A stretch of DNA of 64,000 bases from Octopus sinensis. Its lineage: Eukaryota. The translations under genes were made by a program, and so were the position numbers. Position 1 is the stretch's first letter. Each line of letters opens with the position of its first letter. Where the stretch lies: positions 85,932,001 through 85,996,000 of the forward strand of contig NC_043002.1 in assembly GCF_006345805.1 (NCBI RefSeq), read 5' to 3'. This document shows positions 3,923 to 62,924 of the stretch, piece by piece. The notes under the pieces are model-generated. The model searched no databases and had not been told where the DNA came from. It worked only from the letters and a program-made list of their open reading frames with translations.

Positions 3923-4502
3923 ATTGTGTATGTATGTATGTCATTGTTCAGTTTATTTGTTTGTACGTATGTATGTTACGTAAGAGGCAGCTACGGAGAA
4001 AAAAAGGCTAATTTACAATATATTACAGATAACAAAGTTTACAGTAGAAAATTGCCCCCTAATTTACATAAAGGCTAACGAGGGAACCTTTATTTGAACG
4101 CTCGGTATGCTAGAAATAGCAGACAGACTTCTCTCCAATCACACCATACCTGTTTATTTAAAAACAAATTCACATTGAATACTGTAGTCCTAGACATTAC
4201 TGTTTGAATTTTTTAAATAGACGGCTACATCGCCTTGAACACGTAGGGATGCTTGATCTGCAATAACCCAGAGGTAAAACCCGCAACAAATTCTACGAAG
4301 TATTCCAAAATTTAGAAAAGAAATACTTTATAAATAGGAATACATGTACAGAACATGGGGGAATTAAATAATGAATGTGATGTGAGAGACTAGAGACGAG
4401 AAATGGAGTGAGAGACTAGAGCCGCGGTGTTTGCGTCGGTGGTTTTACAGTCGTAGTAGCGCAGTTGCTTTCACTTTTCGTTCTCTCCCCTTCACAGTGA
4501 AG

Positions 4503-4880
4503 GGCAGTAGTGGCTGTGTGGTAAGTAGGTTCCTTACCAACCACGTCGTTCCGGGTTCAGTCCCACTGTGTGGCACCTTGGGCAAGTGTCTTCTACTATA
4601 GCCCCGGGCCGACCAAAGCCTTGTGAGTGGATTTGGTAGACGGAAACTGAAAGAATCCCGTCGTATATATGTTTGTGTGTCTCTGTTTGTCCCCCCAACA
4701 TCGTTTGACCACCGATGCTGGTGTGTTTACGTCCCCATAACTTAGCGGCTCGGCAATAAAGGCCGATAGAATAAGTACTAGGCTTGCAAAGAATAAGTCC
4801 TGGGGTCGATTTGTTCGGCTAAAGGAGGTGCTCAAGGATGGCCACAGTCAAATGACTGAAACAAGTAAAAAAAAAAAAGA
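4503..4880 (+). mobile_element. tRNA-derived SINE, family B (internal microsatellite, gtaaaagag tail)
   Basis: tggctgtgtggtaag...ggttcagtcccactg...ccttgggcaagtgtcttctactatagcc...gactgaaacaagtaaaa. At least 15 copies are present, e.g. 10983-11826(-), 11912-12280, 15217-15630, 19157-19610, 19729-20070, 30405-30817, 32356-32755(-), 37425-37825, 51765-52500(- x2) and 54205-54560. Confidence 0.85.
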
Positions 4881-10044: not shown

Positions 10045-10058
10045 GTCTCTATGGTAAC
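10045..10058 (+). promoter_or_regulatory. RFX X-box of the tektin-1 promoter
   Basis: GTCTCTATGGTAAC is a perfect match to the X-box consensus GTHNYY-AT-RRNAAC and ends 38 bp upstream of the tektin ATG. A CCAAT box lies at 9983-9987. Confidence 0.8.
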
Positions 10059-10112: not shown

Positions 10113-10280
10113 GTAAAATGAATGAGTTTTTCTAAATTTTTACCACTAGAGTTGCAAAAGAACGAAATTTAATATAAATATATATGTATGTATGTATGCA
10201 TGTATGTGTGTTTATATGTATGTATGTGTATTTATTGACTGCTATTTCCAGTAAACATCGGTACCTTGTTGTACCGCTAG

Positions 10281-10326
<46 letters not shown>

Positions 10327-10327
<1 letters not shown>

Positions 10328-10816
10328 GTTTAAATATTTGTTGTGCAAGATTTTTTATGTGAAGTCGTGTGTTGAAACAGATATTGTTATATTTCGGAAT
10401 GGTCATATTGCCAGTTTAGCCAATAAAAACACACGCACTATATATTTGGTGTTATTTTGCTTCAGTGATATTTATTTTTTACATTAATCTTAATCTTATT
10501 TCGGCCAAAGTTCTTTCGTCACACTCCTGTGACCGCATCAGTGGTCCTTTGTTTTCTTCTCACTTACTTGTGTCTCTCCTTACTAACCGTCAGCCATTTT
10601 ATATAAAATGGCTGACGGTTAGTAAGGAGAGACACAAGTAAGTGAGAAGAAAACAAAGGACCACTGATGCGGTCACAGGAGTGTGACGAAAGAACTTTGG
10701 CCGAAATAAGATTAAGATTAATGTAAAAAATAAATATCACTGAAGCAAAATAACACCAAATATATAGTGCGTGTGTTTTTATTGGCTAAACTGGCAATAT
10801 GACCATTCCGAAATAT

Positions 10817-10824
<8 letters not shown>
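10327..10824. mobile_element. Fold-back palindromic element in a (TA)n array; Penelope-like pLTR-derived, copy 1
   Basis: Perfect 222-bp arms at 10381-10824 centred on 10602/10603, plus a one-sided tail at 10327-10380, flanked by (TA)n. The arm is identical to those at 61816-62869. Confidence 0.75.
10658..10702 (+). ncRNA. Hammerhead-ribozyme-like fold with a variant core; mirror copy at 10503-10547(-), further copies at 61938-61982(-) and 62703-62747(+)
   Basis: GG-A-CCA CUGAUGC-G GUCAC aggagu GUGAC GAAA gaac UU UGGCC. Stem I and stem II pair; the core has A9 changed to C. Confidence 0.45.
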
Positions 10825-10854
<30 letters not shown>

Positions 10855-11174
10855 ACATCATCATCATCATTTAGCGTCCGCTTTCCATGCTAGCATGGGT
10901 TGGACGGTTCAACTGGGGTCTGTGAAGCCAGAAGGCTGCATCAGGCCCAGTCTGATCTGGCAGTGTTTCTACTATATATATACTCTTTTACTTGTTTCAG
11001 TCATTTGACTGTGGCCATGCTGGAGCACCGCCTTTAGTCGAGCAAATCGACCCCAGGACTTATTCTTTGTAAGCCTAGTACTTATTCTATCGGTTTCTTT
11101 TGCCGAACCACTATGTTACGGGGACGTAAACACACTAGCATCGGTTGTCAAGCAATGTTGGGGGACAAACACAG

Positions 11175-11231
<57 letters not shown>

Positions 11232-12301
11232 ACAATTTAATAAATAAAACATATGCATACATACATACATAAATGTCCATACCTACATCTATATGTATAT
11301 ATACATGCATATATGAGTACAGGACACCACAAATAAACGTAGAACACAATGAGAAACGCAAACATAAAAACAAAACAAGGAAACGGACTTTTTTTAACAA
11401 CAAAAAAAACAGAGTACAAGCCAAACAACAGAGGGAACATTCCCCTTCTTCAGCTGCCCCTGTTTCGATTCATTGCGTGTTTCAAAGGTAAGGGCAGTAA
11501 CACGACCACACCGAAGCTGTCCTTCCCGCAAAATAAATTAAATAAAATTTTTTTTTGCGGAGGGGTAAAAGAAGGTGACAAGAACAGGATGTAAAAGCAA
11601 TACAAATAAAGATAAAAACAGTAAAAGACAGGACAAGGAAACCAACAATAAGGGCTTTTATATACATGTATACGACGGACTTCTTTCAGTTTCCATCCAC
11701 CAAATTCACTCACCAGGCTTTGGTTGGCCCGAGGCTATAGTAGAAGACACTTGCCCAAGTTGCCATGCAGTGGGACTGAACCCAGAACCATGTGGTTGGT
11801 AAGCGAGCTACTTACCACACAGCCACTCTGCTTTATTAAAAAGTACCAAAAATATAGCAAAAACTGTTACTCGGTGTTTCCCGTTCATCGGACAGTTTTG
11901 TCTAGAACCTAAAGCAGTTTGCTTACCAACCACATGGTTCCAGATTCAGTCCCAATGCATGGCACCTTGGGCAAGTGTCTCCTACTATAGCCTCGGACCG
12001 ACCAAAGCCTTGTGAGTGGATCTGGTTGACGGAAACTGAAAGAAGCCCGTCATATAAATATATGTGTGTGTGTGTCTGTGTCTGTGTTTGTTCCCCAAAC
12101 ATTGCTTGACAACTGATGCTGATGTGTTTACATCTGCGTAACTTAGCAGTTCGGCAAAGTGACTGATAGAATAAGCACTAGGCTTACAAAGAATAAGTTC
12201 TGGGGCTGATTTGTTCGACTAATGGCGGTGCTCCAGCATGGCCGCAGTCAATTAACTGAAACAAATAAAAGAAAGAATGAAACAATACACACACACACAC
12301 A

Positions 12302-12539
12302 CAGAGGTTTGGCCAAAAGTCACACGACAGTAAATCAAAATTCCATAAATACTATCTGTAATTCTGTATTGACTTGAATGCAAAAATGTGTTGCTCAAGA
12401 AGGACTTCTGTTTGAACAATTTTCATGATGTTTCATATTTAGATGGTTTTATTAAATTTATTCAATTGTTAAAAATAAATAAATTTGGGAATAAAATGGT
12501 TTTGATTTACTACTGTCTGGTGACTTTTGGCTAAACCTG
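12302..12539. mobile_element. Tc1/mariner-type MITE; a second copy lies at 53263-53511
   Basis: TIRs cagaggtttggccaaaagtcac / gtgacttttggctaaacctg, followed by TA. Confidence 0.75.
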
Positions 12540-12579
12540 TAAGTATGCATGCATGCATGCATGTATGTATGTATGTCTT

Positions 12580-12960
12580 CCTTTGATTCTGACATGCAAT
12601 GTCTGTGCAAGACCCTGCCTCAGTAAAGCTGGACTCGTGAGTCATCTTCGTAGTCATAAAGCAAGACAGATGAGTGATAACCTGGCCACTAGTGGTGGTG
12701 TAACACACCATACTAATCATATCTGTTGGGCATGTGGAAGAGAGTGTAATTTGGCAGGAGGACTTAAACGACATACAAAGGTACATGAAGCCCAGTAACA
12801 ACTACAGCCGGCTATTACCAGTAAAGGTTTTAGTTACCAATTTTGTACAAGACATTGTAGATCTTTAGCTGGGCTAAAAAGTCACATTCGATCACAGCAC
12901 CAGTAACAGTTAAGCTTCGTGCAATGGCCATACTCGATAACGAGGGGGCAGCCATAATGT
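12580..12960 (+). mobile_element. 3' end of an RTE-type LINE with two C2H2-like zinc knuckles
   Basis: CNVCARPCLSKAGLVSHLRSH and CWACGRECNLAGGLKRHTKVH, ending in a microsatellite tail. Confidence 0.65.
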
Positions 12961-12967
12961 ATGTATG

Positions 12968-13007
<40 letters not shown>

Positions 13008-13441
13008 CAGAAAAAAATTTGTATGTATATATATATATATATATACACACATACAGAAAAAATTTCTGACATGATTCTAAAATAAGAATAATGAACATTT
13101 GTCACATTTACATACAAGAAATAACAAATATGAAGATGTTATGGCAAAGTGTTATTTTACTGGTGCATGACTTTTGCATTACTGTATATTCTGTGTAATC
13201 AGTAGAAATGAAAACAAATCTATTTTTTATTCAAAATCCAGAATTCTCCCAAAAGGCTGCACTTAAGAGCATCAGAGGTGTCATGCACATGGCTTCTAGC
13301 CATAGATTTCTTATCTTTTTTTTTTTTTTGTCTTGTGCTATGCTTACCTTATAACCTACTTTGAATTTTAGCAATCTCAAATGTTTATCCTCTACGTTGT
13401 ATATTTCCTGCATCATGTTTAAACCATTTTTTCACTGCCAG

Positions 13442-18644: not shown

Positions 18645-19320
18645 GTAATAAATTCTTGTAATTTTTATCATCATGCAGTTTGTCATTTTTACCATTTTAC
18701 ATTACATATTTTCCCCTCGATTTATAAAGTTATTACTATAAGAATGGATATGCTTATGAAGAACCTAGTATAATTAGTCTGCAAAAAGATTTTCAGAGAA
18801 TGATCAAAGAAAAGTATTTAAATTAGATATCTTCACCATTATTTTTCTCAAATCACTGAAATAGATAGAGATTTATCACATTTTATTTATAAATGAACTT
18901 GATATTACAAGTGTCTACAATTCTAATCAGTGTTTGGTTTATGTTATTTCAACCACAGTAACTTATATTTACATTATCCTTACAATGATAAATTCTATTA
19001 TTGCAAATCTGCCAACATATTTTCTTCATCATACTACATCAAATTTTATTGCAAAAGAAGTTAGTTTTAGTTCAAAATAGCTTGAACATTGTTGAATTTC
19101 TTAGTGTTGTGTTGTATATCTAGTGTAGAATTTATATTGTTAATCTACATAACATAGGCACAGGAGTGGCTGTGTAGTAAGTAGTTTGCTTACGAACTAC
19201 ATGGTTCCAGGTTCAGTCCCACTGCATGGCACCTTGGGCAAGTGTCTTCTACTATAGCCTCAGGCCGACCAAAGCCTTGAGAGTGGATTTGGTAGACGGA
19301 AACTGAAAGAAGCCCATTGT

Positions 19321-19433
<113 letters not shown>

Positions 19434-29967: not shown

Positions 29968-30571
29968 CCCTTTAGCATTCAGATTGTTCTGTCAAATACA
30001 ATGCTTATTTATTTACATTGTTTAGAATTAATCATGTATTATCTCATGTGGATGTGCAATGGCCCAGTGGTTAGGGCAGCAGACTCGTGGTCGTAGGATC
30101 ACGGTTTCAATTCCCTGACTGGGCGTTGTGATTGTTTATTAACACCTAAAGCTCCACGAGGCTTCAGCAAGGGATGGTGGTGATCTCTGCTGTACTCCTT
30201 TGCCACAACTTTCTCTCACTCTTTCTTCTGTTGGCCTTCCTGCTTAGCCAGTGGGGTGGCGTCATTTGAAGGCTAAAACAATGCGAAGCTCATTGTGACC
30301 AGCGATGTGTAGCAACATCTGATAGCCTGGTCAGTCATGGTGATTAACTCATAGCTTTGAGATTTCGATGATGTAATAGTATATTTTTAGAATGATATTA
30401 TATAGGCGCAGGAGTGGCTGTGTGGTAAGTAACTTGCTTACCAACCACATGGTTCCGGGTTCAGTCCCACTGCGTGGCATGTTGGGCAAGTGTCTTCCAC
30501 TATAGCCTCGGGCCAACCAAAGCCTTGTGAGTGGATTTGGTAGACGGAAACAGAAAGAAGCCCGTCGTATA

Positions 30572-30622
<51 letters not shown>

Positions 30623-31383: not shown

Positions 31384-31626
31384 GGCAGTAGCTGTAGCAG
31401 CAACAGCAGCAGTAGTAGTAGCAGCAGCAGCAGCAGCGGTAGCAGTAGTAGTAGTAGTAGTAGCAGCAGCAGTAGCCTCAGCAGCAGCAGTAGTAGTAGT
31501 AGTAGTAGCAGCAGCAGTAGCCTCAGCAGCAGCAGTAGTAGTAGTAGTAGTAGTAGCAGCAGTAGCAGTAGTAGTAGTAGTAGTAGTAGCAGCAGCAGCA
31601 GTAGTAGCAGTAGTAGTAGTAGTAGT

Positions 31627-31658
<32 letters not shown>

Positions 31659-31864
31659 CAGCAGCAGCAGCAGAAGTAGTAGCAGCAGCAGCAGCAGCAG
31701 TAGTAGCAGTAGTAGTAGTAGTAGTAGTAGTATTAATAAGTAGAACATCACTTTTATGCTTCAGTGTTAGTAGTAGTAGTAGCAACAGCAGTAGTAGTAG
31801 TAGTAGTAGTAGTAGCAGCAGCAGCAGCAGCAGTAGTAGTAGCAGCAGCAGCAGCAGCAGTAGT

Positions 31865-31919
<55 letters not shown>

Positions 31920-61446: not shown

Positions 61447-61526
61447 TTGTTTTCGGCTGATTTCTTCTGCATAAGAGCTCGTTTCCAAGCAGGAACATTT
61501 TTAAAACGGGCTTCTTCTTCTGCCTG
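61447..61526 (-). CDS. Espin/forked-like protein, penultimate coding exon (NAGNAG acceptor)
   Basis: tttttcag|CAG|GCA...AA|gtaagc. Encodes [27 protein letters not shown], resembling the espin actin-bundling module [20 protein letters not shown]. Confidence 0.65.
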
Positions 61527-61680
61527 CTGAAAAAACTAATTTAGTGTGAGTAGTCTGTAACAATGACTCAAAAGAATGGTTAAGCAATCACACACCAAAG
61601 TTCTTGAATATTAAATGTATGACATATACATATTTACAGCTGATTTCTTCTGCATAAGAGCTCGTTTCCAACGATATTTG

Positions 61681-61815: not shown

Positions 61816-62296
61816 ATATTGTTATATTTCGGAATGGTCATATTGCCAGTTTAGCCAATAAAAACACACGCACTATATATTTGGTGTTATTTTGCTTCAG
61901 TGATATTTATTTTTTACATTAATCTTAATCTTATTTCGGCCAAAGTTCTTTCGTCACACTCCTGTGACCGCATCAGTGGTCCTTTGTTTTCTTCTCACTT
62001 ACTTGTGTCTCTCCTTACTAACCGTCAGCCATTTTGTATTTCTATTGTATGTCTTCATTTACGCATGCTTATATCTCTATGTGCGTCTGTGTTTATTTAG
62101 TGTGTGTGTGGGGGGGGTGCCTGTAATATTTGTATCTTCTGGTTATATACATTCTTGTAATTTGTATTTTGTTTTTGTTGTTGTTGCTTTTGTTCTAATT
62201 TTGTTCATGTGTTTACATCCACCCATTATTATCATTACATATGCTTGTATGTATGTGTAACAACAATATTAGTAATAATAATAATAAATCTAATTG

Positions 62297-62386
<90 letters not shown>

Positions 62387-62924
62387 TTTCAATTAGATTT
62401 ATTATTATTATTACTAATATTGTTGTTATACATACATACAAGCATATGTAATGATAATAATGGGTGGATGTAAACACATGAACAAAATTAGAACAAAAGC
62501 AATAACAAAAACAAAATACAAATTACAAGAATGTATATAACCAGAAGATACAAATATTACAGGCACCCCCCCCACACACACACACTAAATAAACATAGAC
62601 GCACATAGAGATATAAGCATGCGTAAATGAAGACATACAATAGAAATACAAAATGGCTGACGGTTAGTAAGGAGAGACACAAGTAAGTGAGAAGAAAACA
62701 AAGGACCACTGATGCGGTCACAGGAGTGTGACGAAAGAACTTTGGCCGAAATAAGATTAAGATTAATGTAAAAAATAAATATCACTGAAGCAAAATAACA
62801 CCAAATATATAGTGCGTGTGTTTTTATTGGCTAAACTGGCAATATGACCATTCCGAAATATAACAATATCTGTTTCAACACACGACTTCACATAAAAAAT
62901 CTTGCACAACAATATTTAAACGTA
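61816..62924. mobile_element. Fold-back palindromic element in a (TA)n array, copy 2 (longer arms, opposite orientation)
   Basis: ~490-bp arms joined by A-tract-(TA)n-T-tract, with a one-sided tail at 62870-62924. The outer 220 bp are identical to copy 1. Confidence 0.78.

What the first reader, a model, noticed from the sequence alone, without database searches (positions are those of the whole stretch)
10327..10824. Young (TA)n-targeting fold-back element with an asymmetric tail and a ribozyme-like core, present twice 51 kb apart
Seen: a spacer-free 444-bp perfect palindrome in tektin-1 intron 1 and a ~1.05-kb near-perfect palindrome at 61816-62869. By eye, the outer 220 bp are identical in all four arms. 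At both loci one arm stops at ...aaatataacaatat and runs into (TA)n, while the other continues through the same ~54-bp tail (ctgtttcaacacacgac...tttaaacg). The fixed asymmetry at two independent sites, in opposite orientations, points to an integration mechanism rather than chance. Known: Penelope-like retroelements produce inverted pseudo-LTRs with a short 3' tail extension, carry minimal hammerhead ribozymes, and some clades insert into microsatellites. Inference: this is a recently active, non-coding, hairpin-forming PLE derivative or retrozyme family, possibly undescribed in this lineage.
Basis: partly seen in the sequence, partly recalled or inferred. Interest (0 to 1): 0.85.

Follow-up and report, generated by a model that had tools for sequence, protein, structure and literature searches.

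The report
Stumps of an unusual Penelope retrotransposon
The two palindromes are short head-to-head stumps of a young, protein-coding Penelope-like jumping gene that has left over a thousand such ends in TA repeats of this octopus genome; its reverse transcriptase carries an unusually long insertion, and its ribozyme has likely been decaying while the element kept spreading.

Summary
Both palindromes are real. They are not a non-coding family. They are 5'-truncated insertions of an autonomous 4.55-kb Penelope-like element (telomerase-like RT plus C-terminal GIY-YIG), found full length elsewhere in the genome. The 54-bp tail is the start of its ORF: arms end at ORF +26 (tail-less, 1,426 exact ends) or about +80 (1,358 exact tailed junctions), nearly always in (TA)n. 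The inverted copy plus one-sided tail is the published PLE signature. Three things go further. (1) Either arm can be the longer one (24 vs 14 of 46 junctions), which favours two separately primed cDNAs over a single fold-back. (2) The hammerhead core changes stepwise from canonical A9 in older copies to C9 in the youngest, the window's included. (3) The RT has 130-136 residues between motifs A and B', against about 63 in described C-terminal-endonuclease PLEs, and this is shared by over 100 homologues: possibly an unnamed lineage. Ribozyme activity, clade placement and read support for the two centres were not shown.

The parts
10327..10380 (-). Tail of the locus 1 tailed arm, equal to ORF nt +27..+80; it runs into (TA)n
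   Evidence: in partial tandems L068, L069, L073, L075, L077 the same tail runs straight on into the ORF
10381..10602 (-). Locus 1 tailed arm: pLTR from about -196 to ORF +26 (ATG at 10406-10404)
   Evidence: L005
10603..10824 (+). Locus 1 inverted tail-less arm: about -196 to ORF +26 (ATG at 10799), ending in (AT)16; joined to the other arm through a 4-nt ATAT overlap
10658..10702 (+). Minimal hammerhead-like motif (helix I, 6-bp helix II, GAAA) with C at core position 9 (10670); mirror copy at 10503-10547 on the minus strand
   Evidence: no Rfam hit on the locus 2 arm
10281..10326 (.). Left flank, (TC)n(TA)14, target microsatellite
10825..10852 (.). Right flank, (AT)n, target microsatellite
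61816..62342 (-). Locus 2 inverted tail-less arm: from the element's internal TA-rich 3'-UTR repeat through the pLTR to ORF +26 (ATG at 61841-61839)
62343..62869 (+). Locus 2 tailed arm: TA-rich repeat, 3'-UTR/pLTR, ORF +1..+26 (ATG at 62844)
62870..62922 (+). Tail of locus 2 (53 bp), followed by three more templated bases and (TA)n
62703..62747 (+). Hammerhead-like motif with C9; mirror copy at 61938-61982 on the minus strand
10113..13441 (+). Predicted intron 1 of a tektin-1-like gene, which hosts locus 1

Best explanation
Each palindrome is one insertion of a young autonomous Penelope-like retrotransposon, made of two 5'-truncated copies of its 3' end joined head to head in a (TA)n repeat, and likely formed when the two cut target ends each primed reverse transcription at a different internal site near the start of the ORF. 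Shown: the parent element (4,552-bp unit, about 3.9-kb ORF with telomerase-like RT, Zn-linker and GIY-YIG), the two fixed 3' ends (+26 and about +80), the head-to-head geometry, TA targeting, and the fact that either arm can be the longer. Inferred: the GIY-YIG domain cuts both strands in (TA)n; one end primes at +26 and the other at about +80 on two RNA copies (a dimer, or a tandem transcript); both cDNAs stop early and are joined by microhomology. At locus 1 both stopped near -196 and were joined at ATAT, which gives a perfect palindrome. The hammerhead is likely not needed for this in the youngest subfamily.
For: Parent element: L068 has an inverted tail-less arm, a truncated copy with tail, a full unit and a tail (tails at 2659 and 7211). 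The ORF span is 3,924 nt in L069. The 14 best VIA-align rows for the predicted fold are all telomerase RTs (best Z 15.7, rmsd 3.6, 291 aligned); Pfam RVT_1 and GIY-YIG hits are weak, below cut-off. Exact ends: 1,426 tail-less+TA and 1,358 tailed, reversed-pattern control 0. On contig C1, 33 of 81 tail-less ends have a tailed end within 10 kb, and 33 of 33 are head to head; 0.6 expected by chance. (TA)3 starts within +61..+105 in 25 of 30 and 29 of 30 tailed loci, against 189 of 1,170 control windows. Of 46 tail-less/tailed junctions the tail-less arm reaches further 5' in 24, the tailed arm in 14, and 8 are equal; in L093, L095 and L106 the arms do not overlap at all. Published match: the tail is the sequence between two internal RT start sites, both strands are cut and extended, a dimer is predicted, and HHR mutants do not block insertion in vitro (PMC11167929, parts 1-2). 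The pLTR plus tail covers the first codons of the ORF, and head-to-head palindromes are typical (PMC3846280).
Against: No read or contig was shown to span either palindrome centre. 48 of 81 tail-less ends on C1 had no exact tailed partner within 10 kb; some have truncated or diverged partners, but the rest were not resolved. 8 of 46 junctions have equal arms, locus 1 among them (locus 2, not in that count, also has near-equal arms), and these fit a single hairpin fold-back equally well; three join through an 11-nt quasi-palindrome at -184. L034 has a tail on both arms. None of the 10 loci fetched for the 5' end has the frame open from end to end (longest element frames 883 and 748 aa). Breakpoints come from BLAST and are good to about 10 bp, and older copies may carry later deletions. 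The priming model was shown in vitro for a Poseidon element, not for this lineage.
Confidence: 0.85

Rival explanations
1. Same element, but the inverted arm is made by self-priming: one cDNA (or an antisense template) folds back and is copied, as proposed by Arkhipova et al. 2013.
For: 8 of 46 junctions have equal arms, locus 1 included; three join at a quasi-palindrome at -184; inner ends pile up at -200..-180; PMC3846280 discussion.
Against: Fold-back of the tailed cDNA cannot give a tail-less arm that reaches further 5' (24 of 46) or arms that do not overlap (3 of 46). An antisense-template version is not excluded by these counts.
Confidence: 0.2
2. A separate non-coding family (retrozyme or non-autonomous fold-back element) that copies itself as a fixed hairpin unit.
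For: Both window copies lack RT and EN sequence; short copies greatly outnumber long ones (989 vs 51 first-look candidates).
Against: Inner junctions differ from copy to copy and grade continuously into the ORF. The tail is ORF sequence. Copies are head-to-head pairs, not tandem monomers.
Confidence: 0.04
3. Fold-back artefact of long-read sequencing or assembly.
For: A spacer-free perfect palindrome; no laid contig spans the centre.
Against: The flanks differ on the two sides. The asymmetry is fixed at ORF +26 vs about +80 in more than 1,300 ends each. Public-run contigs from two samples show the tail-less end running into (TA)n at 10381 (18 and 12 contigs; X1 may be the source sample). The locus 2 arms differ from each other.
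Confidence: 0.03
4. MITE or fold-back DNA transposon with long terminal inverted repeats.
For: Inverted arms; TA flanks.
Against: Asymmetric ends, variable inner truncation, and direct continuity with an RT plus GIY-YIG ORF.
Confidence: 0.01

Closest known systems
Canonical endonuclease-positive Penelope-like elements (Arkhipova et al. 2013, PMC3846280; Craig et al. 2021, PMC8557442)
   Same: Single ORF with telomerase-like RT and C-terminal GIY-YIG (CCHH); partial tandems forming pLTRs; inverted 5'-truncated copy; tail on one end that covers the first codons; Asn-rich ORF block.
   Different: The tail is 54 bp rather than 30-40. RT motif A to B' spans 132 aa rather than about 62-64. The hammerhead lacks A9 in the young copies.
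Nematis clade
   Same: Short Zn-linker: CX4CX2C, then 7 residues to the next Cys (7 in two of the printed Nematis rows), and a similar stretch before it.
   Different: Nematis rows have no fingers insertion (about 64 aa) and different motif B'; no tree with named Nematis sequences could be built.
Neptune clade
   Same: CX2-5CxxC linker and microsatellite bias.
   Different: Neptune has a spacer of about 25-30 aa after CxxC. A Neptune-type element from this genome (L255, my assignment by motifs) has A-B' spacing 63 and only 26-29% identity in three short HSPs.
Naiad/Chlamys
   Same: (TA)n preference (Naiad); insertion at the IFD position; no canonical hammerhead, which parallels the young subfamily here.
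   Different: Their endonuclease is N-terminal and their IFD is shorter (about 20-40 aa extra, against about 70 here).
PAc, Poseidon of Anolis (Frangieh et al. 2024, PMC11167929)
   Same: Two internal RT start sites inside the ORF start define the tail; AT-rich targets.
   Different: Start sites are at +26 and about +80 here, against about +111-118 for the main PAc site; the hammerhead lies about 100-140 nt upstream of the ATG rather than overlapping it; different clade.
Recently active Penelope families of Octopus vulgaris (Bonar et al. 2026, PMC13282606)
   Same: 30 recently active Penelope families with 329 insertions are reported; an O. vulgaris predicted protein is 98% identical to this ORF, so the family may well be in that library.
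   Different: In the passages and supplement hits seen, no clade, structure or ribozyme is described.

Membership tests
EN+ Penelope-like elements | Telomerase-related RT | tested here: met
   YVDD; the 14 best VIA-align rows are TERTs, Z 13.5-15.7; RVT_1 weak
EN+ Penelope-like elements | GIY-YIG endonuclease with CCHH in the same ORF | tested here: met
   L031 frame of 1,044 aa holds RT, two Cys between VVY and YVG, two His, R/E/N; PF01541 E 0.0025
EN+ Penelope-like elements | Partial tandems forming pLTRs | tested here: met
   L068, L069, L073, L075, L077
EN+ Penelope-like elements | Adjacent inverted 5'-truncated copy and one-sided tail | tested here: met
   33 of 33 paired ends head to head; 7 of 7 long loci have an inverted copy, 6 of them tail-less
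EN+ Penelope-like elements | Hammerhead motif in the pLTR | tested here: inconclusive
   Min-HHR layout present (PMC4209133); canonical A9 in 581 of 3,136 motif matches, C9 in the window copies; no Rfam hit; cleavage untested
EN+ Penelope-like elements | Target-site duplication | not testable with these tools
   Both ends lie in (TA)n and no empty allele was seen
EN+ Penelope-like elements | Single uninterrupted ORF in a full-length copy | tested here: inconclusive
   Overlapping natural copies cover most of it but 0 of 10 fetched loci are open from end to end
Nematis | Reduced CX2-5CxxC linker before a C-terminal EN | tested here: met
Nematis / Neptune / Poseidon / Hydra (C-terminal EN clades) | No insertion in fingers | tested here: not met
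   132 aa here; 130-136 in 106 of 120 homologues, 14 lacked a scorable motif; 121-152 in 42 of 145 representatives with both motifs; about 62-64 counted by eye in Fig. S1 rows; statement in PMC8557442
Nematis | Monophyly with named Nematis RTs | not tested
   No named reference sequence was available as a stored protein
Neptune | Long linker between CxxC and GIY-YIG | tested here: not met
   7 residues against about 25-30
Hydra | No CCHH; CxCX5C linker | tested here: not met
   CCHH and CX4CX2C present
Naiad/Chlamys | N-terminal endonuclease | tested here: not met
   EN is C-terminal here and in 36 of 37 representatives with both motifs
Non-LTR retrozymes | Non-coding tandem monomers with a hammerhead | tested here: not met
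   Head-to-head stubs continuous with an ORF; definition from passages of 10.64898/2026.07.22.740005
MITE / fold-back DNA transposon | Symmetric termini, fixed length, no RT link (definition recalled) | tested here: not met

The most novel reading that the evidence does not exclude
The parent belongs to an unnamed clade of Penelope-like elements that combines a C-terminal Nematis-type endonuclease with a conserved, folded insertion of about 70 residues in the RT fingers, longer than the telomerase IFD. Its octopus branch lost hammerhead catalysis step by step while staying highly mobile, a natural demonstration that the ribozyme is dispensable, and it integrates by priming both target ends at two fixed internal sites.
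Probability: 0.4. Interest if true: 0.65.

Novelty: new variant of a known kind. Interest (0 to 1): 0.45.

Why it matters
The palindromes themselves are ordinary PLE insertions. Their value is as data on three points the PLE papers leave open. (1) How the inverted copy and the tail arise: more than a thousand near-identical insertions give the statistics, and a first sample argues against a single fold-back. (2) What the hammerhead is for: PMC8557442 calls its function unclear and PMC11167929 finds it dispensable in vitro; here a dated A9, C9/UC, C9/UU series in one lineage can be assayed directly. (3) Whether the insertion in fingers separates PLE clades and links them to telomerase: a C-terminal-EN lineage with a longer-than-TERT insertion does not fit the 2021 scheme. 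Perfect intronic hairpins such as the one in the tektin gene are also plausible dsRNA and editing substrates in octopus (inference, untested).

Tried and rejected
Rfam on the whole palindrome returned only hairpin-driven miRNA matches below gathering score, and on the single arm nothing. The hammerhead region's fold is not more stable than shuffles (z -1.21), nor is the ORF start (z 1.18 and -0.83). Empty-site and centre test by reads: no depth over the microsatellite flank, no piece spanning the stretch, and run X22 laid 0 reads, so the test was uninformative. Sequence search of the PDB with the alignment found only two bacterial RTs; whether the insertion superposes on the TERT IFD was not examined residue by residue. 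The ESM Atlas gave PLE-like clusters (RVT_1, HTH_animal, DUF8422) with no clade name. Cluster look-ups gave no useful names. Differences between the locus 2 arms: two are private (0 of 43 and 0 of 37 other matches), so they say nothing about two templates. PMC3849965 (shrimp element) was irrelevant. Literature searches for a C-terminal-EN PLE with an IFD and for hammerhead loss in PLE subfamilies found no description; the search for the effect of core changes found nothing, so the importance of A9 rests on the published descriptor and on recall. Repbase, Dfam and subscription papers (e.g. Arkhipova 2006) could not be searched, and bioRxiv supplements were closed, so the lineage may already be catalogued. 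A transcription-start explanation of the -200..-180 pile-up was considered; it could not be separated from microhomology at the local quasi-palindrome.

Full report
1. Observation. Locus 1 is a perfect spacer-free palindrome, 10381-10602 and 10603-10824, with a 54-bp extension on the left only (10327-10380) and (TA)n on both sides. Locus 2 (61816-62922) is the same design in the other orientation, with longer arms whose inner parts are 97% alike. The outer 220 bp are identical in all four arms. Locus 1 lies in the predicted first intron (10113-13441) of a tektin-1-like gene. The host is an octopus by sequence: the ORF found below is 98% identical to a predicted Octopus vulgaris protein.

2. 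The parent element. The tail plus arm gave 989 candidates in the genome, and the 40 scored were listed at 100% identity. Upstream, many copies continue through a TA-rich repeat into a GIY-YIG coding region. Longer stretches gave an RT plus GIY-YIG frame and full units. L068 (G000:C12:46131500-46141400) reads: inverted tail-less arm, 5'-truncated copy with tail, full unit, tail; the unit is 4,552 bp. The ORF starts 26 nt inside the arm and runs through the tail; ATG to stop spans 3,924 nt in L069. None of the 10 loci fetched for the 5' end is open from end to end, which may be real decay or assembly indels. The 5' part gave 51 candidates, so most copies are 5'-truncated. The predicted fold (pLDDT 83.6) matches telomerase RTs best, as expected for a PLE.

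3. Anatomy of insertions. Arms end at ORF +26 (1,426 exact ends followed by TA) or continue into the tail (1,358 exact junctions); the reversed-pattern control gave 0. Tailed ends enter (TA)3 mostly at +80 to +85, in 25 of 30 and 29 of 30 loci, against 16% of control windows. On C1, 33 of 81 tail-less ends have a tailed end within 10 kb, and all 33 are head to head (0.6 expected); 48 have no exact partner. This is the structure described for PLEs: an inverted 5'-truncated copy, a tail on one end, and pLTR plus tail covering the first codons (PMC3846280, passages; PMC8557442, passages). PMC11167929 (parts 1-2 of 4 read) showed in vitro that the tail is the interval between two internal RT start sites and that both strands are cut and extended.

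4. Mechanism. If one cDNA folded back, the tail-less arm could not reach further 5' than the tailed arm. Among 46 tail-less/tailed junctions from 107 loci (L001-L037, L068-L137; junctions with an internal or microsatellite side were left out of this count), the tail-less arm is longer in 24, the tailed arm in 14, and 8 are equal; three pairs do not overlap at all. Junction positions are mostly unique, and most rows of that call show an overlap of a few bases. I infer two separately primed cDNAs joined by microhomology. Locus 1 is an equal-arm case joined at a 4-nt ATAT overlap provided by a minor variant (8 of 91 matches), so for this locus alone a fold-back cannot be excluded. Inner ends pile up at -200..-180, which could be a transcript 5' end or the local quasi-palindrome. 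The sample is small, mostly from C1, and partly selected for long or young copies.

5. The ribozyme. The arm holds the minimal hammerhead layout of PMC4209133 (parts 1-2 of 4 read): short helix I, one extra base before a 6-bp helix II, and GAAA. In the window copies position 9 is C, not the conserved A, and the base before the cut is U. Genome-wide, 581 of 3,136 motif matches have A9. Loci picked by this motif alone give median pairwise divergence of 9.9% for A9 (27 of 30 usable), 4.8% for C9/UC (20 of 20) and 1.6% for C9/UU (20 of 20); the window arms are 0.8% from the last group. The A9 group mixes subfamilies, which inflates its spread, but its nearest-neighbour distance is also highest (4.2% vs 1.7% and 0.8%). 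One divergent copy (L141) also has a palindromic helix III. The direction is therefore likely canonical to non-canonical, with the element still spreading. That C9 abolishes cleavage is inference from the published descriptor and from recall, not a test. With the O. bimaculoides rate quoted in PMC13282606 (0.0036 per Myr) the youngest group is roughly 2 Myr old or less, an upper bound because assembly errors count as divergence.

6. Clade. The endonuclease is C-terminal, with CCHH and a short Nematis-like Zn-linker. The RT, however, has 132 residues from the motif A Asp to motif B', 130-136 in 106 of 120 homologues, and 121-152 in 42 of 145 further representatives in which both motifs could be scored. 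Counted by eye from Fig. S1 of PMC8557442, Penelope, Nematis and Neptune rows have about 62-64, a long Naiad about 88 and human TERT 119; a Neptune-type element from this genome has 63. That paper treats the insertion as absent from C-terminal-EN PLEs. The insertion is conserved in the alignment and confidently modelled. Searches found no description of such a lineage, and two motifs of it were absent from that paper's supplement, but Repbase, Dfam and subscription papers were out of reach and no tree with named references was built. It works like a canonical PLE; membership of any named clade is not established.

7. Artefact check. Contigs from two public runs show the tail-less end running into (TA)n at 10381, and the fixed asymmetry across more than a thousand ends is not what a fold-back artefact gives. 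The two centres themselves were not spanned by any listed piece, and no empty site was seen.

8. Verdict. Observation confirmed, interpretation partly supported. The headline structure is known; two earlier AI notes from shark-type genomes reached the same reading, which is not independent evidence. The remaining interest lies in the long RT insertion, the dated ribozyme series and the arm-length test. Interest 0.45; new variant of a known kind. Papers seen: PMC11167929 and PMC4209133, first two parts; PMC8557442, passages and supplement parts 54 and 58 plus supplement search rows; PMC3846280, PMC3849965 and 10.64898/2026.07.22.740005, passages; PMC13282606, passages and supplement search rows; others, search listing only.

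Noticed in passing
L031:2646-3380 (element ORF, upstream of the RT): An Asn-rich low-complexity block of about 250 aa that keeps the frame open (16-44% Asn per 50 aa), longer than the matching region in the homologues aligned; recalls the N-rich inserts of Adineta Penelopes (PMC3846280).
   Followed up: partly
window 10418-10500 in run X23: Only this part of the arm is covered, at about 500-fold in 3% of the run, with diverged bases and many strand-switch joints: a different high-copy fold-back repeat built from part of the pLTR in that sample.
   Followed up: no
window 10045-10058: A motif resembling the RFX X-box (consensus recalled) about 40 bp upstream of the predicted tektin start codon, fitting a ciliary gene promoter.
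   Followed up: no
window 61456-61488 and 61639-61671: A 33-bp duplication of the end of an exon-like minus-strand frame (about 61453-61530), lying just beside the repeat that flanks locus 2.
   Followed up: no
L253-L258, L264: At least two abundant Neptune-type PLE families with long open frames (775-883 aa) in the same genome; the GIY-YIG search gave 5,029 candidates.
   Followed up: partly
L027, L034, L074: Atypical arrangements: a second tailed copy facing the first across (TA)n, and inverted arms that also carry the tail.
   Followed up: no
loci: Other canonical hammerhead motifs (A9, palindromic helix III) from unrelated repeats occur in the flanks.
   Followed up: no
window, e.g. 4493-4698, 19149-19354, 30397-30602: Many dispersed SINE-like repeats of several families, resembling octopus SINEs (recalled).
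   Followed up: no
window 31385-31905: An imperfect (GCA)n-type array of about 520 bp just upstream of a tektin exon.
   Followed up: no
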